From NCBI GenBank assembly GCA_031316235.1, contig JALDRA010000001.1:3990001-4022000 (forward strand): a stretch of 32,000 nucleotides of DNA. The letters run 5' to 3'. The notes under the pieces are model-generated. The model did no database searches. It saw nothing but the letters and a program-made list of their open reading frames with translations, and was not told where the DNA came from. Shown here piece by piece: positions 7,800 through 32,000 of this stretch. The position numbers were made by a program, and so were the translations under genes. How positions within the stretch are numbered: the stretch's first letter is position 1; each line of letters starts with the position of its first letter. Source of the stretch: Candidatus Scalindua sp. (lineage in GTDB: Bacteria; Planctomycetota; Brocadiia; Brocadiales; Scalinduaceae).

Positions 7800-8729
7800 A
7801 TGAAAGAAAATTATATTACTCCTGATAATGACGGCACTATCGAAAACCACAAGGCTGGTATCCTGAGAAGGCTGAGTTCAATTTTAACATTGATCAAATT
7901 TTCTCATACCATATTTTCACTTCCGTTTGCTGTCATGAGCGCATTTCTCGCTGCCAATGGATTACCTACACTCCGCCAATTTCTCTTAATCATTTTTGCA
8001 TTGATCATGGCTCGCAGTTGTGCAATGACCTTTAACAGACTGGTGGACGCAAAATACGATATTCATAATCCGAGAACGGCTTATCGTATTCACCTGCAGA
8101 AATTTGTCGGAAAAACAACTCTCTGGATCTTCACCATCATATGTACACTGCTCTTTGTGGCCTGCGCTGCCGGATTAAATAAGCTTTCGTTACTCGTATC
8201 GCCAATAGCCCTCATCATTATCTTCGGGTATTCATATACAAAAAGATTCACAAACCTGTCGCACTTTGTATTAGGGTTAGGGCTAGCGTTTTCTCCAATA
8301 GGAGCCTGGGTTGGCATAAGGGGTAGATTTGAGGTCGCCCCGTTTGTTCTGGCGCTTGGTGTTCTTTTGTGGACTGCAGGTTTCGATATTATCTACGCAT
8401 GCCAGGATGTCCAGCACGACATAAAAACCAATCTGCACTCCGTCCCCCAGAGACTGGGGATAAAATCCTCTCTGAAGCTGGCTCGTCTGCTTCACACTCT
8501 TATGTTGCTTGTTCTTTTCTCTTTTGTTTTCTTCACCGAGTTAGGCATTATTTATACTGTTGCCGTCTGCTTTGTAGGAATTATGATCTTTTATGAACAT
8601 TCGCTCATCAAACCCCACGATTTATCAAAAATCAATCTGGCGTTTTTTACCGTCAATGGATCGATAAGTATATTTTTGATGGTTATCACCATCATCGACA
8701 TCTATATTTTTAATTCCGGCTCCCATTGA
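7800..8729 (+). CDS. UbiA-superfamily aromatic polyprenyltransferase (4-hydroxybenzoate / MqnP-like)
   Basis: 309 aa and highly hydrophobic, with multiple TM helices. Asp-rich motifs NRLVDAKYDIHNPRT and DIIYACQDVQHD are typical of UbiA prenyltransferases. The substrate (ubiquinone-type versus menaquinone/futalosine-type) cannot be decided from sequence alone. Confidence 0.85.
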   Translation: MKENYITPDNDGTIENHKAGILRRLSSILTLIKFSHTIFSLPFAVMSAFLAANGLPTLRQFLLIIFALIMARSCAMTFNRLVDAKYDIHNPRTAYRIHLQKFVGKTTLWIFTIICTLLFVACAAGLNKLSLLVSPIALIIIFGYSYTKRFTNLSHFVLGLGLAFSPIGAWVGIRGRFEVAPFVLALGVLLWTAGFDIIYACQDVQHDIKTNLHSVPQRLGIKSSLKLARLLHTLMLLVLFSFVFFTELGIIYTVAVCFVGIMIFYEHSLIKPHDLSKINLAFFTVNGSISIFLMVITIIDIYIFNSGSH

Positions 8730-19473: not shown

Positions 19474-19630
19474 TAGTTAGTGCGTGAACGAAAACCCGGT
19501 GTTTGAACGAAAACTGCTCCGGTACGAGGTGCGAAATAATTACGTAACCGGTGCGTACTCAAGTACGTGAGGATTACATCCTTAGTGCAGCAGCGCCGTA
19601 GATGGGTTGTTTTCGTTCAACCACTAGTTA
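19474..19630. repeat. 157-bp MITE-like element with imperfect 22-nt terminal inverted repeats
   Basis: Left end TAGTTAGTGCGTGAACGAAAAC (19474-19495) matches the reverse complement of the right end TAACTAGTGGTTGAACGAAAAC (19609-19630) at 18/22 positions. TGAACGAAAAC also recurs internally at 19504-19514. Confidence 0.5.
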
Positions 19631-19667
19631 CGGATTTATGATTATTAACCAGTTTTATCAGGACATT

Positions 19668-20591
19668 ATGATGCCCAGACCGAATCTTGCCACAAATCTG
19701 TGTGGAATCAGGCTGTCGAATCCAACTATCCTGCCATCAGGATTCCTTGGGACCTCCCGGCCTCTGTTAAAAAGAGTCGCTGCTAATGGAGCCGGAGCAG
19801 TAACGATTAAATCTGTAGGACTTACGCCTCGAGAAGGACACAAAAACCCGACTGTCGTTACCTTTGAAGCAGGCATGCTGAACGCTGTTGGATACTCAAA
19901 TCCGGGAGTGGAAGAAACAGCCGGGGAATTTTCCAAGACGGAAGAAATTGATGTGCCGCTGATCGCAAGTGTTATCGGCACAGATGCGGAAGAATTTGTA
20001 CAGGTGATAGAAAGATTAGCGGATACCGCATTCTCGGCAATTGAACTCCCTCTTTCGTGCCCCCACACTCCAGGATTTGGTCTCCTTGCAGGTCAGGGTA
20101 CACCCGAAAACACCGGAAAAATAGTTTCTGCTGTCAGAAAGGCTACGAAACTCCCCATATTTGTCAAACTCTCTCCGAATGTTCCGGGCATTGGTATCCT
20201 GGCAAAGGTTGCTGAGGATGCGGGAGCAGATGCCATTACGGCCGTAAACTCTTTAGGGCCCGGTATGATCATTAATATCGAGGCGCGGTCTCCTGTTCTT
20301 TCATTCAAGATCGGCGGAGTCTCTGGCAGTGCCTTGAGGCCAATTGCAACGCGTTGTGTATACGATATTTACGAATCAGTCACCATTCCCATTATAGGTG
20401 TTGGCGGAATCTCAACCGGTCGTCATGCCATCGAGATGATTATGGCCGGGGCGACTGCCATTGGAATCGGTACGGGAATCTATCAAAGGGGGATTGACGT
20501 TTTTCAAAAGGTGTGCAGGGAGATGGAGTCCTGGATGTCTGAAAATAATCTTAAGGATATCGAAGAAATCAAAGGAGCTGCCCATGGGTGA
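19668..20591 (+). CDS. pyrD: Dihydroorotate dehydrogenase, class 1B catalytic subunit
   Basis: NAVGYSNPG, active-site Cys context ELPLSCPHT, GGVSGSALRPIA and IIGVGGI. ATG 19668 (MMPRPNLATNLCGIRLSNP) is preferred; the longer track ORF starts inside the repeat element. Confidence 0.9.
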   Translation: MMPRPNLATNLCGIRLSNPTILPSGFLGTSRPLLKRVAANGAGAVTIKSVGLTPREGHKNPTVVTFEAGMLNAVGYSNPGVEETAGEFSKTEEIDVPLIASVIGTDAEEFVQVIERLADTAFSAIELPLSCPHTPGFGLLAGQGTPENTGKIVSAVRKATKLPIFVKLSPNVPGIGILAKVAEDAGADAITAVNSLGPGMIINIEARSPVLSFKIGGVSGSALRPIATRCVYDIYESVTIPIIGVGGISTGRHAIEMIMAGATAIGIGTGIYQRGIDVFQKVCREMESWMSENNLKDIEEIKGAAHG

Positions 20592-21414
20592 TGCATTGAT
20601 ACAGTCTGGTCAGCCGGTGATGGTAAAGATTAATGAGATCATCAACGAGGCCAGTGACACAAAGACCTTTATCTTCAAACAGAAACTTGTATACAAGATC
20701 GGGCAGTTCCTGATGGTCTGGTTGCCGGGCATTGATGAAAAACCCTTTGCAGTATCAAACTATGGCAGCGACTTCTTTGGATTTACCGCGCTCGCAAGAG
20801 GTAAATTCACACAACAGCTGCATACCATGGTTGCCGGGGACCTGGTGGGTATACGGGGCCCTTTCGGGAGGGGATTCACCATTCCCGATACCATTGCGGA
20901 TGGTACCGGAAACGCATGTGTGATTGGAGGCGGATGCGGCATGGCATCGCTGACTACACTCATTGAACATATGCCGCATGGCAATGTGACAGTGCTCAAC
21001 GGAGCAACGACAAAACCTAATTTACTTTTTCCCGACCGGTTTGAAAACACCATCCTGATCACGGACGATGGCAGTATCGGTGAGCGGGGATATCCAACTG
21101 ACAGGCTGGAGGAGTTACACAGGGAACGGAGATTCAGCATAATCTACACCTGCGGACCTGAGATCATGATGTTCAAGGTGTATGAGTTCTGCAGAAACAA
21201 CGGTATACCTTGCCAGGTTTCTCTGGAGAGGTATATGAAATGCGGTATCGGTATCTGCGGGCAATGTGTCTGTGACGGAATGATGGTGTGTAAGGATGGT
21301 CCTGTCTTCAACTCAGAGGAGCTGGATATCATGAACGATTTCGGGAAGTATTCGTTGCTGAAAAGCGGCCGGAGAGTTACCGTAGCGGATTATGCCAGGT
21401 GGAGGCAGGATTAG
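20584..21414 (+). CDS. pyrK: Dihydroorotate dehydrogenase electron-transfer subunit (PyrK)
   Basis: Ferredoxin-reductase-like fold with a C-terminal Fe-S Cys cluster, CGIGICGQCVCDGMMVCKDGP. ATG 20584 overlaps the pyrD stop (ATGGGTGA), which implies translational coupling. Confidence 0.88.
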   Translation: MGDALIQSGQPVMVKINEIINEASDTKTFIFKQKLVYKIGQFLMVWLPGIDEKPFAVSNYGSDFFGFTALARGKFTQQLHTMVAGDLVGIRGPFGRGFTIPDTIADGTGNACVIGGGCGMASLTTLIEHMPHGNVTVLNGATTKPNLLFPDRFENTILITDDGSIGERGYPTDRLEELHRERRFSIIYTCGPEIMMFKVYEFCRNNGIPCQVSLERYMKCGIGICGQCVCDGMMVCKDGPVFNSEELDIMNDFGKYSLLKSGRRVTVADYARWRQD

Positions 21415-24562: not shown

Positions 24563-25123
24563 TCAGCAGCAGCGCAGATCTCGTTCAGCCACCTGGCTAT
24601 TTCTCAATACGGCAATATAGGGGAGATTCCGGTATTTATTGTCAAAATCGAGGCCATATCCTACAACAAACTGGTTGTCAATATCAAAGCAGCAGTAGTC
24701 GGGAATGATATTCACTTCTCTTCGTTCTCTTTTGTTGAGAAGGACACATACCTTGACAGACAAGGGGTCATGCTTCTTGATCATCGGTAGAATCTTTGCC
24801 AGTGTATTGCCCGTATCAAGTATGTCATCCACGACAAGGACGTGTTCACATCGTATATTCAGCCTGGGAGTGTCGATGATCTCCGCCCCCCTCTCCGGGC
24901 AGGTGGCATCCCCGACATACGTATTAACACGAATGGTATCAATTTTAATGGTAAAGGGAATCAGGCGAATCAAGTCAGAGAGAAATATGAGACTCCCATT
25001 CAAGATTCCAATTATTGTCAGCTTTTTGTCTTCGTAATCAGCAGTTATTCTTCTTGCCAGCTCCTCAACCCGTTCCCGGATCTCAATTTCGCGAATGATA
25101 ACTTTTTCAATATCTTTTTCCAT
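24563..25123 (-). CDS. hpt: Hypoxanthine(-guanine) phosphoribosyltransferase
   Basis: 186 aa. PRPP-binding loop VLVVDDILDTGNTL and the GYGLD..YRNLPYI ending. Confidence 0.92.
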   Translation of the reverse strand: MEKDIEKVIIREIEIRERVEELARRITADYEDKKLTIIGILNGSLIFLSDLIRLIPFTIKIDTIRVNTYVGDATCPERGAEIIDTPRLNIRCEHVLVVDDILDTGNTLAKILPMIKKHDPLSVKVCVLLNKRERREVNIIPDYCCFDIDNQFVVGYGLDFDNKYRNLPYIAVLRNSQVAERDLRCC

Positions 25124-25166
25124 GAGTCACCTTATTCGTAAACACCCTGTTATCTGTCAGGGTGCT

Positions 25167-25183
25167 ATTATGAGATGAGTATA
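25167..25183 (+). repeat. 17-nt fragment matching the end of the 108-nt repeat
   Basis: ATTATGAGATGAGTATA is identical to the terminal 17 nt of copy B (read on its minus strand). It differs at one position from copy A (AGTATGAGATGAGTATA). Confidence 0.35.
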
Positions 25184-25186
25184 CAA

Positions 25187-25381
25187 TCAGAGGTCAATCA
25201 CATCTTTTCGATACCTGGCTGCATGGCATACGCAGGCGCGAATAACCTCATCTGTCAATAAACCGGGATAATTCTTCAATATCTCAACTTCGGATACATC
25301 GGATGCTGAGAATCAGGGTATAAACTCTACCATAATCGTTGTTCCTTTTATAGTCTCTTTTCCGCTCAATCTTCTATTCCT
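25187..25381 (-). pseudogene. DUF433-family (antitoxin-like) gene relic
   Basis: Minus-strand frame reads ..LSGKETIKGTTIMVEFIP*FSASDVSEVEILKNYPGLLTDEVIRACVCHAARYRKDVIDL*. This resembles the DUF433 core (GKP.I.GTRI.V..I......G.S..EIL.DYP.L..EDI.A.L.YA). It has an in-frame TGA (25313-25315) and lacks an N-terminus and start codon. Confidence 0.5.
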
Positions 25382-25411
25382 TCACCACTTTTCTTTTCAT
25401 TGAGATTTTAT

Positions 25412-26770
25412 ATGACAAATACCGACCATGAAAGAACTCACACATCCGGGAAAACGGTTGAACTGCGTAACAGAACACGGGTACAACTCATGCTGCCGAC
25501 TCAATTACACGAGCAGACCGGTACCATAACAAATACCGTTTCGATGAATCTCTCAGCTGGCGGCCTGTTTATAACCATGGATAATCCTCCCGTTCCGGGA
25601 AAGAGTTTCAGGATAGAAATTTTTTCTCTTCGCGGTGTGGCCATCTTATCCGGAACAGTTGAAGTACAGTGGCGTGTGTCCGAGGCGTCAGCCACTCTCC
25701 CCTGCGGCTTTGGAGCCAGGTTTATCCAGGTTGAGCTTAAAGATGAGAAGATCATTCATACCGTTGTGCAATCGGCGATCCACCAGGACAGTCTGCCTGC
25801 TCATGTAAGAAACCTGAGTAATCCGGCATCTACAGTAAACGAAATGACAGGTATCCAGAACATCAGCTTATCAGGGGAGCTGAAGAAGTTTATTTCTGAA
25901 TATGGCAAACACGGTGAACGGGATGAATTTATCTGGAAATGGGTATACCGGGGGCTTCAAATAACTTCATTAAGCTGTATTGATACATCACTGAAGGAGC
26001 AGGTGCAAACCATCAAATTCCTGGGTGTTATGTTTGACGTCATGCTGGATGATGCGGTGGATCAAATTCAGAACAAGGTACTGGTCGAACAGATGCTGCT
26101 GATCTCTTTTGAAAAGTCTTTCCTGCAAAGAAAAAAAGTTCCATCACACTATCTGGAGTATCTTGAATTTGCCAACCTTTTATGGGAAGAGATTGAAATG
26201 CGGTTCCGTAAATTACCCCGCTACAGCGAATTTATTGATCTTCTGGAATTTGACTACCGCCAGCTTTTTAACTGTATGAGATATGCACTAGTGGTAAATG
26301 AAGACCCCAGGCGTTTAAACCTGGCCGAACATGATCTTTATCAACCGCATAACATGCACATGATGGTCAATGCAACCATTGACATAATGGCATCTGGTGG
26401 ATTTAACAGGCAGGAAGCCGGTATTCTCCGGGAAGTGATCTGGAATGCCCAGGTAATGGGACGAATCGGCAACGCAATCAGCACCTGGCAGAGAGAATTA
26501 AAGGACAGGGATTTTACCAGTAAAATCTTTGCCCGGGCCCTTGCCGGAGGGGCATTAACCACGAATGATCTTTTAACGGAGAAACCAGAAAAAATTGAAC
26601 AGATTCTTCTGGACTCTCAGCTTGAAGATGAACTTCTTGCCGAATGGGGGAATCGTCATACATACATATCAGGGCTGGCTACCCGAATCAAAACTGTTGA
26701 CATCACCGGTCTGATATCCGGGCTTGAAAAACTGATTATACTTCATTTAGGCAGTCGCGGTCTCAAATAG
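25412..26770 (+). CDS. PilZ domain protein fused to a class-I terpene/isoprenoid-synthase-like domain
   Basis: PilZ signatures RNRTR (RxxxR) and, 22 aa later, NLSAGG ((D/N)xSxxG). The C-terminal ~320 aa carries LDDAVD (nt 26048-26062) and NAISTWQRE (nt 26471-26497), 141 aa apart. ATG 25412 is preferred to TTG 25400. Confidence 0.85.
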   Translation: MTNTDHERTHTSGKTVELRNRTRVQLMLPTQLHEQTGTITNTVSMNLSAGGLFITMDNPPVPGKSFRIEIFSLRGVAILSGTVEVQWRVSEASATLPCGFGARFIQVELKDEKIIHTVVQSAIHQDSLPAHVRNLSNPASTVNEMTGIQNISLSGELKKFISEYGKHGERDEFIWKWVYRGLQITSLSCIDTSLKEQVQTIKFLGVMFDVMLDDAVDQIQNKVLVEQMLLISFEKSFLQRKKVPSHYLEYLEFANLLWEEIEMRFRKLPRYSEFIDLLEFDYRQLFNCMRYALVVNEDPRRLNLAEHDLYQPHNMHMMVNATIDIMASGGFNRQEAGILREVIWNAQVMGRIGNAISTWQRELKDRDFTSKIFARALAGGALTTNDLLTEKPEKIEQILLDSQLEDELLAEWGNRHTYISGLATRIKTVDITGLISGLEKLIILHLGSRGLK

Positions 26771-26959: not shown

Positions 26960-27157
26960 ATGAAATATTCAGTTGTTATAAATAAAAGCGAATATGGATA
27001 CAACGCACATTGCCCTGTTTTTCCAGGTTGTCACAGCCAGGGTGATACATTAGAAGAAGCAATCGAGAACATTAAAGACGCTATCATAACATACCTCAAA
27101 ATGATAGCTGAAGAGACGAAGGATGCCACCGTTTATGAAGTAGAGGTATCTGTATAG
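26960..27157 (+). CDS. hicB: HicB-family (UPF0150) antitoxin
   Basis: 65 aa. MKYSVVINKSEYGYNAHCPVFPGCHSQGDTLEEAIENIKDAI matches the small HicB/UPF0150 fold consensus (PGC.SQG.T.EEA..N.K.AI). Confidence 0.8.
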   Translation: MKYSVVINKSEYGYNAHCPVFPGCHSQGDTLEEAIENIKDAIITYLKMIAEETKDATVYEVEVSV

Positions 27158-27158
27158 T

Positions 27159-27366
27159 ATGACATTTACAGATGTCTCCTCTGATCGTGCCATAAAGGCA
27201 TTTCGTAAAGCAGGGTTCAAGATTGTAAAAAGGTAAACACTTCGGTATGTCTGACGGTACCCACCGTATAACTATTCCAAATCACAAAAGACTTAACCCT
27301 TATACCCTCAAGTCTATTATTAAAAGCGCCGGTCTTAAGGATGAACAATTCAAACACCTCCTTTGA
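27159..27366 (+). pseudogene. hicA: HicA-family toxin gene, frameshifted
   Basis: Frame 1 reads MTFTDVSSDRAIKAFRKAGFKIVKR* (stop 27234-27236). The next frame continues GKHFGMSDGTHRITIPNHKRLNPYTLKSIIKSAGLKDEQFKHLL*. Deleting one A from the A5 run (27227-27231) restores a single HicA-like ORF of ~68 aa. Confidence 0.7.
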
Positions 27367-27606: not shown

Positions 27607-30600
27607 TTACCCAACGGCCATTTTAGCTGAATCTCTCCAGAGATAAGGAGGCATTGGCTCATTAAGTTTCCATTGTATACTCATAGGTTTTGACCCGTAA
27701 TGATCGATTAGGTTTCCTTCTCCAAGAAAAACAAATGACATTGTAATACCAAATTCATCTTTGTTTTTTTCACGGACAAAAAGGAGGATTTTCTTCCCTC
27801 TTTCTTTATGCTGTATATAGGATAATCCTTTTCCACTATCTGGCTTAGCTTCGTTTTGTGACTGCCAGTGAAAAATAGTTTCGCTAATAGCAAAATCGTT
27901 ATATAAAGTAGTGGGTGAGAAATCCTTTTCGGACTTAATAAGAGTAACAAAAAGCAATTCTGTGTTTTTCTCTTTACTAAAGGCAACACCTTCTCTTATT
28001 TCACTTTTTTTTGTGAATGAATGAAAACCAAATGCTGCTAATATTTGTTCCCTTGTATATCTACTGTGAACTTTAAGAGGTTGTGAAAAGGGAAGCTCAA
28101 TGTCTCTTTCAATAAAGTCTATTTTGTCAATTAGTATTTCAAATACCTCAATTATTTCTTCAGTCAGGATTTCATTCTCTCCGATTGCTTTGATACTTTC
28201 TTCAAGGGAGTTAAAATTGCCAGCTGTTTGCCACACATCATAATGGAGCATTAGACACATAGCTTTTTCTTCTTCGTTGAATTGATTAAAATGAATACGA
28301 AAATTTCTCTTTGCTAGTGATAAAACAAACTTAAAATAGGAATTCGAAATGGATGAAAGCCATTTATTATTTATTGCTCTACAAATCACCTTTTCATTAG
28401 TAGTAGAGTAATCTTTAATTTGTTCTGCTAAAAAACATAATTTTTTCCAGTTTCCTTTTTTGTAAATATTTTTAAGAGGAATATGGTAGAAGTTTGAAAA
28501 GTTTTTTAGATTAAGCGGTAAAGTTGTTTGGTGATTAAAATTTCTGATCTTTGTAAGCAATTGATTTCTGTTAAATGATGTTGCTTTTCTAATGTTTTGA
28601 AGAATGGACTCCTTTGCTTTTTTCTCCAAAATAATTGTACATCCCAAAGGTAGGTGAGGAAAATCATCTTCAATTTCTTTTTTAATAGAAGTATTTGTTT
28701 TTCCAACCAATGCTCTAAATTTCCCTTCAAAATCATATTCTGGCCGTGAGTTACCAACGAAATCTAATACAGTCAAACAATCTTTCCCCTCTGCTAATCG
28801 CAAGCCTCTTCCAAGCTGCTGAAGAAAAATTGTTAAGCTCTCTGTTGGTCGCAGAAACAGTAGCGTATCAATATCTGGCAAGTCAACTCCTTCATTGAAA
28901 ATATCAACAACAAAAAGGTAATTGATTTCCTTTTTTAGTAACTTCGTTCTTAGCTCATTTCTTAAATGGCTGTTTGAACTTACTAAATAATCCGCTTTCA
29001 AACCAGCTAGCGAAAACTTTTCAGCCATGTATTCAGCATGTTCTTGTGTTACGCAAAAACAAAGTGCTCTTACCTCATTAATATCTTTGAGATATTTATT
29101 TAGATTGTTAATTATCTCACCAACTCTTTTGTCATTATGCGTATAGATTTGTGTTAATTCGCCTGGTAAATATCTTCCATTACGCCAATCTACGCGTGAC
29201 AAATCAATGCTGTCTGTAACTCCAAAATATTGAAAAGGACAAAGTAATTTCCTATTCAATGCTTCTGGTAATCTTATTTCAGCAGCAATCCTGCCACAGA
29301 AGTCTTTGAGAATATCTTCACCATCCATTCTTTCAGGTGTGGCTGTCAGTCCTAAAATTATGTCTGGCTCGAAATGGTTTAAAATAGGCCGGTAACTTGA
29401 TGCAGCTATGTGATGAACTTCATCTACAATTATGAAATTATAAAATATTTTGGAAATATTCCATGAATCAATTCTGTTCTTCAGTGTTTGTACCGAAGCA
29501 AAAATACAATCATATGTTTCTGGTTCAATTCCATCAACCCATAATTCACCAAAATTGTTATCTCTTAAAATTCCCTGAAAAGTTGCTTGTGCTTGTTGCA
29601 ATATTTCTTTCCTGTGGGCAACAAATAAAAGTTTAGCCCCAGTGTTTTGTTTTCTGAAACTCTTAAAATCAAATGCAGATATAACAGTTTTACCGGTCCC
29701 AGTGGCTGCGACAATTAGATTACTATAACGATTATGAACTGTTCTTTCTGCTTCCAGCCTTTCTAAAATTTCTTCCTGATAATGATAAGGCTTAATGTCA
29801 AAATATACCGAGGGGTCGTTTCTTTCTGTAATTCGTTCCCCTTTGATAGCATCTCTTAGTTTTTCAGAATGATCTGCCTTATTAAATAACTCAAATTCTC
29901 TATCTTGCCAATAAGTATCAAATGTTTTTTGAAACTTATTAATAATGTGGCCAACCTCTTTTGTTGTTACTTTGAGATTCCATTCTAAGCCGTTAGTTAA
30001 AGCTGAACGAGAAATATTTGACGAACCTATATAGCCAGTATGAAATCCGGTATTTCTACAAAACAAATATGCTTTTGCATGCAGTCTTTCATTATTTGAA
30101 TTATATGAAACTTTTATTTCTGTGTTTCTCAATTCAGAGAGAAATTCCACCGCCTTCAGATCAGTTGCTCCCATGTAAGAAGTTGTTATTACTCTAAGTT
30201 GCCCACCTCTTTCAGTAAATTCTATTAATTCGTTTTCAAAAATTCGTATTCCTGTCCATTTGATAAATGAAACTAGAAAATTAATTCTATCTGAAGAAAG
30301 AATTTCTTTTTTGATTTCGCTTTCAAGCGAAATACCGGCATTATTGCCAGTGAATAATTCACTTTGAGACAATCTAGTGTAAGGGGTAATTTCTTTCAAG
30401 TATTTTTCAAAGTCAGAAAATCTTGCATCAATCTTCGAAAAAATAGCGGAAAGAATCTTTGCCTCTGTTCTAATCAAATCCTTATCAAACTCTTCATTGT
30501 TTAATTCATCTCGTAATAGAATAATAATTTTGTTAGACAGCTCAATTTGCTTTTCAATATTGTCATCATCAGAAATTGAATTTAAGGCAACCATGATAAC

Positions 30601-30747
30601 ATCACATAAATATTGTGATAAAAAGCCAGCCGCTTCGTTCTTATCAATTGTCGTTTCTTTTATGTAAAAAACATTTCTATCTAAATCATTCAATTTAGAT
30701 GAAATCAAATTACTTACAAGCTGTTCGTAAAGTCCTTGTTGGATCAT
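27607..30747 (-). CDS. PLD-family nuclease + SF2 (ResIII/DEAH) helicase + DUF3427 protein; SauUSI-like type IV (modification-dependent) restriction architecture
   Basis: 1046 aa. HKD-type nuclease motif RLHAKAYLF...GYIGSSNIS (aa ~220-245). Helicase motifs AATGTGKT (I), IIVDEVHH (II), GLTATPER (III), QQLGRGLR (VI). C-terminal ..HSRYTREQIL..LLFVTLIKSEKDFSPTTLYNDFAISETIFHWQSQ.. is typical of DUF3427. Hand-counted GC is 23-25% in the 60-nt lines at 28321 and 29401, against 42-48% in two counted lines of neighbouring genes. Confidence 0.85.
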   Translation of the reverse strand: MIQQGLYEQLVSNLISSKLNDLDRNVFYIKETTIDKNEAAGFLSQYLCDVIMVALNSISDDDNIEKQIELSNKIIILLRDELNNEEFDKDLIRTEAKILSAIFSKIDARFSDFEKYLKEITPYTRLSQSELFTGNNAGISLESEIKKEILSSDRINFLVSFIKWTGIRIFENELIEFTERGGQLRVITTSYMGATDLKAVEFLSELRNTEIKVSYNSNNERLHAKAYLFCRNTGFHTGYIGSSNISRSALTNGLEWNLKVTTKEVGHIINKFQKTFDTYWQDREFELFNKADHSEKLRDAIKGERITERNDPSVYFDIKPYHYQEEILERLEAERTVHNRYSNLIVAATGTGKTVISAFDFKSFRKQNTGAKLLFVAHRKEILQQAQATFQGILRDNNFGELWVDGIEPETYDCIFASVQTLKNRIDSWNISKIFYNFIIVDEVHHIAASSYRPILNHFEPDIILGLTATPERMDGEDILKDFCGRIAAEIRLPEALNRKLLCPFQYFGVTDSIDLSRVDWRNGRYLPGELTQIYTHNDKRVGEIINNLNKYLKDINEVRALCFCVTQEHAEYMAEKFSLAGLKADYLVSSNSHLRNELRTKLLKKEINYLFVVDIFNEGVDLPDIDTLLFLRPTESLTIFLQQLGRGLRLAEGKDCLTVLDFVGNSRPEYDFEGKFRALVGKTNTSIKKEIEDDFPHLPLGCTIILEKKAKESILQNIRKATSFNRNQLLTKIRNFNHQTTLPLNLKNFSNFYHIPLKNIYKKGNWKKLCFLAEQIKDYSTTNEKVICRAINNKWLSSISNSYFKFVLSLAKRNFRIHFNQFNEEEKAMCLMLHYDVWQTAGNFNSLEESIKAIGENEILTEEIIEVFEILIDKIDFIERDIELPFSQPLKVHSRYTREQILAAFGFHSFTKKSEIREGVAFSKEKNTELLFVTLIKSEKDFSPTTLYNDFAISETIFHWQSQNEAKPDSGKGLSYIQHKERGKKILLFVREKNKDEFGITMSFVFLGEGNLIDHYGSKPMSIQWKLNEPMPPYLWRDSAKMAVG

Positions 30748-31582: not shown

Positions 31583-32000
31583 TTAAACCGGATCATTTTC
31601 CAATTGAGACAGATGCTTGATTCTCTTAAGCATATTCGGGTGTGTACTCAGCTTCTCCATCATCTTATCGCCAAATGTCAGACCAAGAGCGGCATGACGA
31701 ATCCTGGACAGCTCATAGGGATCAATGGTACCATCACGGTCCAGATCGAGCTGGCTCAAATCCCGCAGTTCACTCCTGGCGCGTGACGGATCATTCACAA
31801 AAAAGGCCTTAAGCCCCTCGGACTCTTTAAGCGCCTGCTTATCGATCCGTGCCGATCCATAAACCAGCTTATAGAGGGCGGACGCCATGACCGACGGCCG
31901 ATTGCCCAGGGCCACCGATCCTTTGTCGGCAAAATACTCCCTGATACGCGAGGCGTAAAGAACGAGCAGATTTGTAATAAAATAGAAAAAGAAGGCCGCC
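31583..32000 (-). CDS. M48-family (HtpX-like) metalloprotease, C-terminal part; the N-terminus lies beyond the right window edge
   Basis: The frame stays open from the window edge, upstream of the track's GTG at 31915: ..FFFYFITNLLVLYASRIREYFADKGSVALGNRPSVMASALYKL...LSTHPNMLKRIKHL. The SR.REY.AD and STHP...RI..L motifs are the conserved C-terminal elements of M48 peptidases. The HExxH motif would lie off-window. Confidence 0.75.
   Translation of the reverse strand, partial: AAFFFYFITNLLVLYASRIREYFADKGSVALGNRPSVMASALYKLVYGSARIDKQALKESEGLKAFFVNDPSRARSELRDLSQLDLDRDGTIDPYELSRIRHAALGLTFGDKMMEKLSTHPNMLKRIKHLSQLENDPV

What the first reader, a model, noticed from the sequence alone, without database searches (positions are those of the whole stretch)
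25412..26770. PilZ (c-di-GMP receptor) domain fused to a class-I terpene-synthase-like domain
Residues ~20-125 carry both PilZ signatures: RNRTR (RxxxR) and, 22 aa later, NLSAGG ((D/N)xSxxG). The remaining ~320 aa contains LDDAVD (D217-D221, numbered from the track's TTG start at 25400) and NAISTWQRE (N358-E366). These are a DDxxD motif and an NSE/DTE-type Nxxx(S/T)xxxE triad, 141 residues apart. That is essentially the spacing between the two Mg-binding motifs in characterised bacterial class-I terpene cyclases, about 140 residues in pentalenene synthase and epi-isozizaene synthase. The local context NAISTWQRE also resembles the usual ND(L/I)xSxxKE. A second-messenger receiver fused directly to a terpenoid-synthase fold would imply c-di-GMP control of a terpenoid or isoprenoid product. 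I do not know of a characterised example. Two caveats apply: the second residue of the triad is Ala rather than Asp, and I could not find the C-terminal RY pair.
Basis: partly seen in the sequence, partly recalled or inferred. Interest (0 to 1): 0.75.

Follow-up and report, generated by a model that had tools for sequence, protein, structure and literature searches.

The report
c-di-GMP receptor fused to terpene-synthase-like enzyme
This anammox-bacterium gene joins a receptor for the second messenger c-di-GMP to an enzyme domain with the fold and metal-binding motifs of a terpene synthase. The enzyme domain belongs to an undescribed family that is wired to signalling proteins and isoprenoid-precursor enzymes in hundreds of other bacteria, which suggests signal-controlled production of a small isoprenoid.

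Summary
The ORF 25412-26770 (+) encodes a 452-aa protein.

- **PilZ domain:** Residues 18-117 match Pfam PilZ above the curated threshold. RxxxR and NxSxxG are intact in all close orthologues.
- **C-terminal domain:** Residues ~155-452 match no Pfam, NCBIfam or PDB sequence. Two independent AlphaFold models (pLDDT 87 and 92) hit only class-I terpenoid-synthase-fold structures.
- **Motifs:** DDxxD (213-217) and NxxxTxxxE (354-362) lie 141 residues apart at the ends of two long helices. Their D/D/D and N/T/E residues are invariant in 45 homologues.
- **Family:** It is compact (782 clusters at 50% identity), unmodelled, and I found no paper on it.
- **Fusions:** The domain is always C-terminal. 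Partners are PilZ, cNMP-binding or REC domains, active DXP synthase, decayed DXS relics, or DHBP synthase.
- **Operon:** In 57 of 73 loci it sits beside sensor kinases; the commonest form adds REC-HD-GYP, IspH and FadL.

Membership of Pfam terpene-synthase family 2 fails at sequence level, and the substrate and product are unknown. The best reading is a c-di-GMP-gated terpenoid-synthase-fold enzyme that makes a small isoprenoid, possibly a signal. This is a new variant of a known kind, with high interest.

The parts
25412..26770 (+). Complete gene for a 452-aa PilZ + terpenoid-synthase-fold protein. The ATG start is at 25412 and an in-frame TTG lies at 25400. The stop codon is at 26768-26770.
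   Evidence: ORF list. A 100% identical 452-aa database protein and orthologues of 452 aa.
25124..25411 (.). 288-bp intergenic region shared with the divergently transcribed hpt gene (24563-25123, minus strand). It presumably holds the promoter. No riboswitch or other Rfam element was found.
25463..25762 (+). PilZ domain (residues 18-117). The model shows a six-stranded beta-barrel over residues 28-109.
   Evidence: Pfam PF07238 at E=2.4e-7, 31.5 bits against a cut-off of 22.5. TIGR02266 PilZ-type domain, sub-threshold. AF2 strands.
25466..25480 (+). RxxxR c-di-GMP-binding motif (R19-N-R-T-R23).
   Evidence: Read directly from the sequence. Conserved in all close PilZ-fused orthologues.
25547..25564 (+). 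[D/N]xSxxG c-di-GMP-binding motif (N46-L-S-A-G-G51).
25745..25858 (+). Helical linker (residues 112-149, two helices) between PilZ and the enzyme domain. It is the likely path for allosteric coupling.
   Evidence: AF2 secondary structure. The coupling role is inferred.
25874..26767 (+). All-helical class-I terpenoid-synthase-fold domain (residues ~155-452).
   Evidence: AF2 pLDDT mostly above 90. Foldseek top 50 hits are all terpenoid-synthase fold, replicated on a stand-alone homologue. The family profile spans this region.
26048..26062 (+). DDxxD motif (D213-D-A-V-D217) at the C-terminal end of helix 192-219. This is the proposed first Mg2+-binding site.
   Evidence: Invariant D213/D214/D217. 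Helix position.
26345..26365 (+). Family signature PHNMHMM (residues 312-318), which follows the conserved LNLxEHDLY. H313, N314 and M315 are invariant. Function unknown; the position in the model suggests the helix-G break region.
   Evidence: It also served as a search pattern that retrieved 97 relatives.
26471..26497 (+). NSE-type triad N354-xxx-T358-xxx-E362 (NAISTWQRE) at the C-terminal end of helix 333-364. This is the proposed second Mg2+-binding site.
   Evidence: Invariant N354/T358/E362, plus R351, W359 and R361. Helix position. It lies 141 residues after D213.
26747..26761 (+). Conserved C-terminal LGSRG (residues 446-450). R449 lies 95 residues after N354 and is a candidate counterpart of the Arg in the terpene-cyclase RY pair.
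   Evidence: S448 and G450 invariant; R449 at least 90% conserved. The distance comparison uses R314/Y315 in the terpene-synthase alignment. The equivalence is inferred.

Best explanation
The gene encodes a two-domain enzyme: an N-terminal PilZ receptor for c-di-GMP and a C-terminal catalytic domain with the class-I terpenoid-synthase fold.

**Shown**
- The PilZ profile match, and the RxxxR and NxSxxG motifs conserved in orthologues.
- The terpenoid-synthase fold.
- An invariant DDxxD and N/T/E triad with canonical spacing and helix positions.
- Across the wider family, recurrent fusion or linkage to isoprenoid-precursor enzymes (DXP synthase, IspH, a DHBP-synthase paralogue) and to signalling parts. 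These are PilZ, cNMP-binding and REC domains, plus hybrid kinase and REC-HD-GYP genes.

**Inferred**
- The two motifs hold a Mg2+ cluster that binds and ionises the diphosphate of an isoprenoid diphosphate.
- c-di-GMP binding to PilZ is passed through the helical linker (residues 112-149) to the N-terminal cap of the catalytic domain. It thereby switches activity on or off.
- The unusually high conservation of polar residues points to one fixed, small substrate. So does the absence of any chain-elongating prenyltransferase next to family members. A C5 unit such as DMAPP or HMBPP is favoured by the DXS and IspH linkage.
- In relatives, the operon looks like a DSF/Rpf-type circuit: synthase, then RpfC-like hybrid kinase, then RpfG-like REC-HD-GYP, then IspH, then a FadL channel. 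In it a small hydrophobic isoprenoid would be the diffusible signal and c-di-GMP turnover the output.
- In the Scalindua-type lineage those partners are absent. The fused PilZ puts the enzyme directly under c-di-GMP control.
For: - **PilZ:**
- **Fold:**, with an independent replicate. The hits include VenA, T-muurolol synthase, tolypothrichol synthase, geosmin synthase, isoprene synthase and aristolochene synthase.
- **Motif invariance:**
- **Weak sequence signal:** 16 of 73 members hit PF19086 and 2 hit PF03936. DDxxD maps to profile position ~10 and the NSE Asn to ~151-154 each time.
- **Only one DDxxD:** This argues against an isoprenyl-diphosphate synthase.
- **Isoprenoid link:** There are full DXS-TS fusions with an intact ThDP motif. 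IspH is present in 34 of 73 loci. A divergent RibB-like gene occurs in 15 of 73 loci and is mutually exclusive with the DXS fusion. RibB point mutants can supply DXP (PMC3424233). An FAD monooxygenase lies directly downstream of DXS-TS fusions.
- **Signalling link:** A kinase is present in 57 of 73 loci, and genuine HHExxDGxGYP regulators follow it. Separate PilZ genes lie upstream in 7 loci. There are cNMP-binding, REC+PilZ and Polyangium PilZ fusions. PilZ fusion arose in at least 3 lineages.
- **RpfC/RpfG architecture:** PMC4159695.
Against: - No sequence-level membership of any terpene-synthase family. The window protein has no Pfam hit outside PilZ.
- The best relative reaches 21.1 bits against the 23.7-bit cut-off.
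- hhalign against a pentalenene-synthase-type profile gives 0.5% probability.
- There is no PDB sequence relative.
- No RY pair is present, and no Arg lies 46 residues upstream of the triad (that position is D308).
- Foldseek E-values are moderate (~1e-4) and TM-scores are 0.5-0.65.
- The window contains no isoprenoid-pathway or signalling partner next to the gene. PilZ-fused orthologues have no conserved neighbourhood.
- Many family members carry decayed, ThDP-motif-less DXS relics. That fits a regulatory or scaffolding role as well as a catalytic one.
- Substrate, product, catalysis and c-di-GMP binding are all untested.
Confidence: 0.6

Rival explanations
1. The terpenoid-synthase-fold domain is a ligand-binding regulatory module, not an enzyme. 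It binds an isoprenoid diphosphate or MEP-pathway intermediate (IPP/DMAPP, HMBPP or MEcPP) through the conserved metal site. It then reports pathway status to its partner, which may be the fused DXS, the adjacent sensor kinase, or here the PilZ domain. The protein would integrate c-di-GMP and isoprenoid-precursor levels.
For: - The domain is always the C-terminal partner of regulatory or decayed domains.
- 15 of 15 shorter N-termini have lost the ThDP motif yet are retained.
- The gene sits immediately upstream of sensor kinases in 54 of 73 loci.
- Polar residues are unusually invariant for a terpene synthase.
- From general knowledge, DXS is feedback-controlled by IPP/DMAPP.
Against: - Complete invariance of both metal-binding motifs is typical of catalysis.
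- The operons also carry enzymes and a channel expected of a biosynthetic route: IspH, an FAD monooxygenase and FadL.
- About half of the collected family proteins are stand-alone, with no fused partner to regulate.
- PilZ usually gates an output activity.
Confidence: 0.2
2. It is a genuine enzyme with the terpenoid-synthase fold, but it is not a terpene cyclase/synthase in the usual sense. It might transfer a prenyl group to a polar acceptor, as the TS-fold N-prenyltransferases DabA/KabA do. Or it might act on a non-prenyl phosphate or diphosphate substrate related to DXP or DHBP, which are the products of its two fusion partners.
For: - DabA and KabA appear among the structural matches.
- Many invariant polar residues are present: D281, Q284, N287, R290, N303, E306, H313, N314, D324, R340, R351, R361, D367, S370 and H445.
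- Both fusion partners, DXS and DHBP synthase, make 1-deoxy-ketose phosphates (chemistry from general knowledge).
- The family lies outside the Pfam terpene-synthase models.
Against: - A DDxxD plus NSE trinuclear-metal site is specific for diphosphate esters (established enzymology).
- IspH, which makes IPP and DMAPP, is the most frequent enzymatic neighbour.
- RibB variants can feed DXP into the MEP pathway. The DHBP-synthase link therefore also fits simple precursor supply.
Confidence: 0.15
3. The C-terminal domain is an isoprenyl-diphosphate synthase or a squalene/phytoene-synthase-type enzyme that elongates or condenses chains, rather than a terpene synthase.
For: FPP, GGPP and heptaprenyl diphosphate synthases appear lower in both structure-match lists, at E~1e-3. 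They share the same superfold.
Against: - Those enzymes need two Asp-rich motifs. This protein has a single DDxxD, and the second site is the invariant N/T/E triad.
- There is no Pfam polyprenyl_synt or SQS_PSY hit in any of 73+ members.
- Terpene cyclases outrank them in both searches.
Confidence: 0.04
4. The motifs are chance matches in an unrelated helical domain of no enzymatic significance.
For: Short motifs are common, and no curated profile recognises the domain.
Against: - The shuffle probability is 0.03%.
- The motifs are invariant across 45 sequences and at least 90% conserved in 73 more.
- The fold match was replicated on two models.
Confidence: 0.01

Closest known systems
Bacterial class-I terpene cyclases (Pfam PF19086 Terpene_syn_C_2), e.g. 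pentalenene, epi-isozizaene, T-muurolol, tolypothrichol and geosmin (N-domain) synthases
   Same: - Single alpha-domain fold of about 300 aa.
- DDxxD at the end of one long helix and an N-xxx-S/T-xxx-E triad at the end of another, about 140 residues apart.
- A conserved Arg about 95 residues after the triad.
- Best structural matches and weak profile hits in a consistent register.
   Different: - No member reaches the Pfam threshold, and profile-profile comparison is negative.
- There is no RY pair and no Arg sensor at -46.
- There are far more invariant polar residues than terpene cyclases share with one another.
- The family behaves like one orthologous function rather than a diversifying enzyme family.
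- It is fused to signalling or precursor-supply domains and embedded in two-component operons, not natural-product clusters.
PilZ-gated enzymes such as cellulose synthase BcsA and the alginate co-polymerase Alg44 (from general knowledge)
   Same: A PilZ domain with RxxxR and D/NxSxxG sits in the same polypeptide as, or coupled to, an output activity. c-di-GMP therefore acts post-translationally on the enzyme.
   Different: The output is a soluble terpenoid-synthase-fold domain rather than a membrane glycosyltransferase or polymerase. PilZ is N-terminal and joined by a two-helix linker. No biochemical evidence exists here.
Rpf/DSF cell-cell signalling of Xanthomonas: RpfF synthase, RpfC hybrid kinase, RpfG REC-HD-GYP (PMC4159695)
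   Same: In relatives of this gene, the order is synthase-like gene, then a hybrid kinase (HisKA-HATPase-REC-Hpt), then REC-HD-GYP with an intact HHExxDGxGYP motif. PilZ proteins are encoded alongside, and a FadL-type channel for hydrophobic molecules is present.
   Different: The putative synthase has a terpenoid-synthase fold, not a crotonase fold, and comes with DXS, IspH or RibB-like genes instead of fatty-acid enzymes. The kinase has a HAMP-type input. None of these partners is present in the Scalindua window. The resemblance is architectural only.
Engineered or suppressor routes to DXP (RibB G108S/D113G, PMC3424233), and dedicated extra dxs copies in terpene gene clusters (the latter from general knowledge)
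   Same: The family is physically tied to DXP-forming enzymes. It has either a fused active DXS or a neighbouring or fused DHBP-synthase paralogue, and the two are mutually exclusive.
   Different: The linked RibB-like proteins keep G108 and have Glu at D113, which is not one of the tested suppressor changes. Whether they make DXP is unknown. Natural DXS-terpene-synthase fusions were not found in the literature searched.

Membership tests
PilZ domain (PF07238) | Profile match above the curated threshold | tested here: met
   31.5 bits against a cut-off of 22.5, residues 18-117.
PilZ domain (PF07238) | RxxxR and [D/N]xSxxG c-di-GMP-contact motifs about 20-30 residues apart | tested here: met
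   R19-R23 and N46-G51. Both are conserved in all close PilZ-fused orthologues.
PilZ domain (PF07238) | Six-stranded beta-barrel fold | tested here: met
   The AF2 model has six strands between residues 28 and 109, with pLDDT mostly 73-94. No domain-only structure search was run.
PilZ domain (PF07238) | Binds c-di-GMP | not testable with these tools
   Needs DRaCALA, ITC or a similar assay.
Class-I terpenoid synthase fold (terpene cyclase alpha-domain) | All-helical alpha-domain fold | tested here: met
   Foldseek top 50 hits are all this fold, for two independent models. Probability is 1.00, E is 7e-5 to 1e-3, and TM reaches 0.65.
Class-I terpenoid synthase fold (terpene cyclase alpha-domain) | Asp-rich DDxxD motif at the C-terminal end of a long helix (helix D) | tested here: met
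   D213/D214/D217 are invariant. They lie at the end of helix 192-219.
Class-I terpenoid synthase fold (terpene cyclase alpha-domain) | NSE/DTE triad (N/D)xxx(S/T)xxxE on helix H, about 140 residues after DDxxD | tested here: met
   N354/T358/E362 are invariant and lie at the end of helix 333-364. The spacing is 141 residues. The usual Asp after the first residue is absent. From general knowledge, that Asp is not a metal ligand.
Class-I terpenoid synthase fold (terpene cyclase alpha-domain) | The two motifs face each other across the mouth of an active-site cavity | not testable with these tools
   Model coordinates are not exposed, so only secondary-structure positions could be read.
Class-I terpenoid synthase fold (terpene cyclase alpha-domain) | C-terminal RY pair and an upstream diphosphate-sensor Arg (bacterial enzymes) | tested here: inconclusive
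   There is no RY pair. A conserved R449 lies 95 residues after N354, the same distance as R314 in pentalenene synthases. The position 46 residues upstream of the triad is Asp308, not Arg. Invariant R290, R340 and R351 could substitute.
Pfam terpene synthase families PF19086 / PF03936 | Sequence-profile match at the curated threshold | tested here: not met
   The window protein has no hit even at E<=10. The best relative reaches 21.1 bits against 23.7. 16 of 73 members hit only sub-threshold. hhalign against a 24-sequence PF19086 alignment gives 0.5% probability.
Class-I terpenoid synthase (enzyme activity) | Mg2+-dependent ionisation of an isoprenoid diphosphate | not testable with these tools
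   Requires an enzyme assay.
Isoprenyl-diphosphate synthases (PF00348) | Two Asp-rich DDxxD motifs (FARM and SARM) | tested here: not met
   The protein has a single DDxxD, and the second site is N/T/E. No PF00348 hit occurs in 73 members.
Rpf/DSF-type signal circuit (system-level analogy, relatives only) | Synthase gene adjacent to a hybrid sensor kinase and a REC-HD-GYP regulator | tested here: not met
   This is met in many relatives: a kinase in 57 of 73 loci and HD-GYP in 19. It is not met in this window or in any PilZ-fused orthologue. The synthase is not an RpfF-type crotonase.

The most novel reading that the evidence does not exclude
This family is the synthase of a previously unrecognised isoprenoid-based cell-cell or environmental signalling system in Planctomycetota, Verrucomicrobiota and Myxococcota.

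In that system, a terpenoid-synthase-fold enzyme is fed by its own DXS or RibB-like enzyme and by IspH. It makes a small hydrophobic isoprenoid that passes a FadL channel, is sensed by an RpfC-like hybrid kinase, and is read out through HD-GYP-mediated c-di-GMP degradation.

In Scalindua and several other lineages the loop is closed by fusing PilZ (elsewhere cNMP-binding or REC domains) directly to the synthase. A second messenger then gates production of the isoprenoid post-translationally. This would be the first enzyme of terpenoid metabolism under direct c-di-GMP control.
Probability: 0.25. Interest if true: 0.9.

Novelty: new variant of a known kind. Interest (0 to 1): 0.78.

Why it matters
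c-di-GMP is known to control polysaccharide synthesis, motility, adhesion and transcription. No enzyme of terpenoid metabolism is known to be one of its direct targets, and none surfaced in the literature searched. If the fusion works as its parts suggest, it adds isoprenoid chemistry to the outputs of c-di-GMP signalling. It would do so in anammox bacteria, where aggregation and biofilm behaviour matter for wastewater technology.

Beyond this gene, the survey shows a compact, unannotated enzyme family. It has 782 sequence clusters and no Pfam, NCBIfam or PDB relative. It is repeatedly fused to second-messenger and phospho-receiver domains and to the flux-controlling MEP-pathway enzyme, and it sits in an Rpf-like kinase/HD-GYP operon. 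That makes the hypothesis of bacterial isoprenoid signalling directly testable. Cultured Polyangium isolates that carry a PilZ fusion are available as starting material.

The family also supplies natural DXS-terpene-synthase-fold fusions, and possibly natural RibB-based DXP routes, which are of interest for metabolic engineering.

Tried and rejected
- **Sequence searches of the C-terminal domain.** Searches against Pfam, NCBIfam and PDB sequences, with a single sequence and with a 45-sequence profile, found nothing.
- **hhalign against terpene synthases.** Both gave 0.5% probability, with no usable alignment. The motif register could therefore not be confirmed by profile-profile alignment. That terpene-synthase profile was narrow (pentalenene-synthase-like), so the negative result is weak.
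- **Rfam and promoter/terminator scans.** Rfam found nothing across the window, so there is no c-di-GMP riboswitch upstream. The promoter and terminator scans around the gene were not above shuffle expectation.
- **Local context.** I looked for isoprenoid or signalling partners in the window and next to three other PilZ-fused orthologues and found none. The contexts differ in every genome.
- **Neighbour cluster 6.** This looked like a conserved unknown gene but is an antisense artefact of my ORF caller over the divergent DHBP-synthase gene. Counts were redone with tblastn seeds.
- **Neighbour cluster 8.** This ~310-aa gene directly upstream of DXS fusions has no Pfam hit and no similarity to the TS-like profile. 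It is left unexplained.
- **RibB suppressor positions.** I tested whether the linked RibB-like proteins carry the DXP-enabling substitutions G108S or D113G. G108 is kept and D113 is Glu in 15 of 16. This is suggestive at most, because housekeeping planctomycete RibB sequences were not compared.
- **Literature.** Five searches combined PilZ, c-di-GMP, DXS, HD-GYP, Planctomycetes or Myxococcota with terpene synthase. None found a description of this family or fusion.
- **Isoprenyl-diphosphate synthase and chance-motif readings.** Both were considered and rejected (see rival explanations).
Full report
**Observation**

The window carries an ORF on the plus strand from a TTG at 25400 (ATG at 25412) to a stop at 26768-26770. 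From the ATG it encodes 452 aa. That sequence is identical to a database protein from a 4.15-Mb contig of a Candidatus Scalindua MAG, annotated only as 'PilZ domain-containing protein'. Orthologues have the same length.

The D213-to-N354 spacing is 141 residues.

Shuffling gives the DDxxD/N-T-E pair at 125-155 spacing in 0.03% of trials and the PilZ motif pair in 0.26%. The real test is conservation, described below.

**PilZ half**

- Pfam PilZ matches residues 18-117 at 31.5 bits against a cut-off of 22.5.
- NCBIfam gives a sub-threshold hit to the PilZ-type TIGR02266 domain.
- The AF2 model shows six strands between residues 28 and 109, followed by two linker helices at 112-149.
- All close PilZ-fused orthologues (P0001-P0011, P0014, P0180) keep both RxxxR and [D/N]xSxxG. 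So do the more distant P0145, P0246 and P0253.
- c-di-GMP binding is therefore likely but untested.

**C-terminal half: sequence level**

- No Pfam, NCBIfam or PDB-sequence match exists, with either a single sequence or a 45-sequence profile.
- The domain has many homologues. A word-indexed search found 188 proteins.
- An exhaustive profile search of 1.84 billion representatives found 782 clusters at E<=1e-3 and 685 at E<=1e-10. This is a compact, sharply bounded family.
- In an alignment of 45 members that are 36-60% identical to the query, 39 columns are invariant. They include D213, D214, D217, N354, T358 and E362, as well as R290, H313-N314-M315, R351, W359, R361, D367, S370, H445, S448 and G450. 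Y291 and R449 are conserved in at least 90%.
- In 73 further, more divergent representatives, the first two Asp and the Asn remain invariant. The third Asp, Thr and Glu are at least 90% conserved.

**C-terminal half: fold level**

- The AF2 model of the window protein has mean pLDDT 87.1 and pTM 0.74, with the C-terminal domain mostly above 90.
- It places DDxxD at the C-terminal end of a long helix (192-219) and the N/T/E triad at the C-terminal end of another (333-364). Helices D and H carry these motifs in the same way in class-I terpene cyclases.
- Foldseek against the PDB returned, in its top 50, only aristolochene, T-muurolol, hydropyrene, tolypothrichol, geosmin and abietadiene synthases plus isoprenyl-diphosphate synthases. 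Probability was 1.00 and the best E was 1e-4.
- As a replicate, I modelled a stand-alone homologue, P0034 (pLDDT 92.0, pTM 0.88).
- Its top 50 were again exclusively this fold: VenA, T-muurolol synthase (TM 0.57/0.65), tolypothrichol synthase (0.60/0.62), isoprene synthase, taxadiene synthase, epi-isozizaene synthase and the TS-fold N-prenyltransferases DabA/KabA.

**Sequence-level link to terpene synthases**

- Sixteen of 73 members give sub-threshold hits to Pfam Terpene_syn_C_2 and two to Terpene_synth_C. No other helical enzyme family recurs.
- In each reported case the alignment puts DDxxD near profile position 10 and the triad Asn near 151-154.
- No member reaches the curated threshold; the best is 21.1 bits against 23.7.
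- hhalign against a profile of 24 genuine PF19086 enzymes finds nothing, at 0.5% probability.
- The domain is therefore a distinct family inside the terpenoid-synthase superfold, not a member of the Pfam families.
- It has a single DDxxD, which argues against an isoprenyl-diphosphate synthase.
- It lacks an RY pair. However, the conserved R449 lies 95 residues after N354, the same as N219 to R314 in pentalenene synthases.

**Family anatomy**

In all collected sequences the TS-like domain is C-terminal. N-terminal partners are:
- none, in about half of the collected proteins;
- PilZ;
- cNMP-binding domains (P0192, P0193);
- REC+PilZ (P0173);
- full-length DXP synthase with DXP_synthase_N, Transket_pyr and Transketolase_C;
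- shorter DXS-like regions in which only Transketolase_C is still recognisable;
- DHBP synthase (P0076, P0094).

The ThDP-binding GDG...N motif is present in 7 of 7 full DXS fusions and absent in 15 of 15 shorter N-termini. Those look like inactive relics.

An NJ tree places the window protein in a monophyletic PilZ-fused clade. At least two other PilZ-fused groups lie elsewhere in the tree. The cultured Polyangium sp. 6x1 also encodes a PilZ fusion.

**Genomic context of relatives**

I surveyed 73 non-redundant loci, mostly Planctomycetota, plus Verrucomicrobiia, Myxococcota and others. Counts below were made with tblastn seeds, and domain identities come from Pfam.

| Neighbour | Loci (of 73) |
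|---|---|
| Sensor kinase downstream on the same strand | 54 (3 more upstream) |
| IspH/LytB | 34 |
| FadL/TodX channel | 28 |
| REC-HD-GYP | 19 |
| Fused DXS | 18 |
| Divergent DHBP-synthase paralogue | 15 |
| FAD monooxygenase | 11 |
| Separate PilZ gene, divergent upstream | 7 |

- The commonest kinase form is HAMP-HisKA-HATPase-REC-Hpt.
- The HD-GYP proteins carry HHExxDGxGYP.
- The divergent DHBP-synthase paralogue never occurs together with a DXS fusion.
- The FAD monooxygenase lies directly downstream of DXS fusions and a few stand-alone members.
- E. coli RibB G108S or D113G rescues loss of DXS by producing DXP (PMC3424233).
- The linked paralogues keep G108 but have Glu at position 113 in 15 of 16. 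This is only a lead.
- The kinase/REC-HD-GYP pair has the architecture of RpfC/RpfG of the DSF system, in which RpfF is the signal synthase (PMC4159695).

**Context in this window**

None of those partners is present. The gene is monocistronic and divergent from hpt (24563-25123). polA lies upstream, and a HicB-type antitoxin and a PLD-helicase-DUF3427 gene lie downstream. The rest of the window is housekeeping.

Other PilZ-fused orthologues sit in unrelated neighbourhoods. No Rfam element, and nothing above shuffle expectation in the promoter and terminator scans, was found.

**Interpretation**

Shown:
- a PilZ domain with intact ligand-contact motifs;
- a terpenoid-synthase-fold domain with invariant, canonically placed DDxxD and N/T/E motifs;
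- family-wide physical linkage to MEP-pathway entry and exit enzymes;
- family-wide linkage to second-messenger and phosphorelay components.

Inferred:
- the domain binds Mg2+ and the diphosphate of an isoprenoid substrate and ionises it;
- c-di-GMP binding to PilZ is relayed through the helical linker to the N-terminal cap of the catalytic domain;
- the substrate is small and fixed, given the many invariant polar residues, the lack of any prenyl-chain-elongating enzyme in the operons, and the DXS and IspH linkage;
- in relatives the product serves as a diffusible signal in an Rpf-like circuit, and the fused PilZ is an alternative way to couple the same enzyme to c-di-GMP.

Main rivals:
- The domain could be a metabolite-sensing pseudo-enzyme. 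The decayed DXS relics and the constant kinase adjacency support this. The biosynthetic neighbours and the strict motif invariance argue against it.
- It could be a TS-fold enzyme with different chemistry, such as DabA-like prenyl transfer or a DXP/DHBP-related substrate.

**Novelty**

Five full-text searches found no description of a PilZ-terpene-synthase fusion, a natural DXS-terpene-synthase fusion, or this operon. The family has no Pfam or NCBIfam model and no solved relative. The components are known kinds. The combination, the family and its signalling wiring appear to be new.

Noticed in passing
window 26967-27366 (+): A 65-aa HicB-type antitoxin (26967-27164; PDB HicB 6g1c at E=6e-6) is followed by a HicA-like toxin reading frame. 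That frame is interrupted by a stop after 25 codons and resumes in another frame. It is probably a decayed hicA or a sequencing frameshift.
   Followed up: partly
window 27607-30747 (-): A 1046-aa protein combines a PLD-type nuclease, a ResIII/DEAD helicase and DUF3427. It lies in a stretch of 31-34% GC, against about 43% for the rest of the window. It looks like a horizontally acquired restriction- or defence-type gene.
   Followed up: partly
window 7800-8729 (+): A UbiA-family prenyltransferase is the only other isoprenoid-related gene in the window. It lies 17 kb from the finding, among housekeeping genes, and there is no sign that the two are linked.
   Followed up: no
window 19602-20591 and 20461-21414 (+): The dihydroorotate dehydrogenase (pyrD-type) ORF and the following pyrK-like Fe-S/NAD-binding ORF overlap by 131 nt as listed. 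The TTG start of the second is probably called too far upstream.
   Followed up: no
L037, L042, L043, L075, L079, L060, L064 and others (e.g. L042:8474-11074): Many family members carry N-terminal regions derived from DXP synthase in which only the Transketolase_C domain is still detectable. The ThDP-binding GDG...N motif is lost in 15 of 15, against 7 of 7 retained in full fusions. These appear to be pseudo-enzyme relics kept for a non-catalytic role.
   Followed up: partly
L013, L015, L017, L020, L022, L025-L027, L033, L040, L041, L047, L049, L062, L066; fused in P0076, P0094: A DHBP-synthase (RibB) paralogue is divergently adjacent or fused to stand-alone family members, never together with a DXS fusion. 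Fifteen of 16 have Glu at the position of E. coli D113. That is one of two positions where mutation lets RibB supply DXP (PMC3424233).
   Followed up: partly
P0192, P0193, P0173; L072:9455-10918 and L073 (Polyangium spp.): The same enzyme domain is fused to other receiver modules. These are a cyclic-nucleotide-binding domain (P0192, P0193), REC+PilZ (P0173), and PilZ in the cultured Polyangium isolate 6x1 (L072). The homologue in isolate 15x6 (L073) has a similar length but was not profile-tested. The cultured isolates could serve as experimental hosts.
   Followed up: partly
L018:7248-8171, L014:7491-8414 and four other loci: A conserved ~310-aa gene lies directly upstream of the full DXS-TS fusions and overlaps their start. 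It has no Pfam hit and no similarity to the TS-like profile. By eye its C-terminal half resembles a degenerate GGDEF domain (LIAPDHLAILFPATD), but this was not tested.
   Followed up: partly
window 31583-31915 (-) and L089:3530-4120: A small EF-hand protein lies near the PilZ-TS gene both in this window (about 5 kb downstream) and in the 'Pseudomonadales' MAG orthologue locus (about 4 kb upstream). This is probably coincidence.
   Followed up: no
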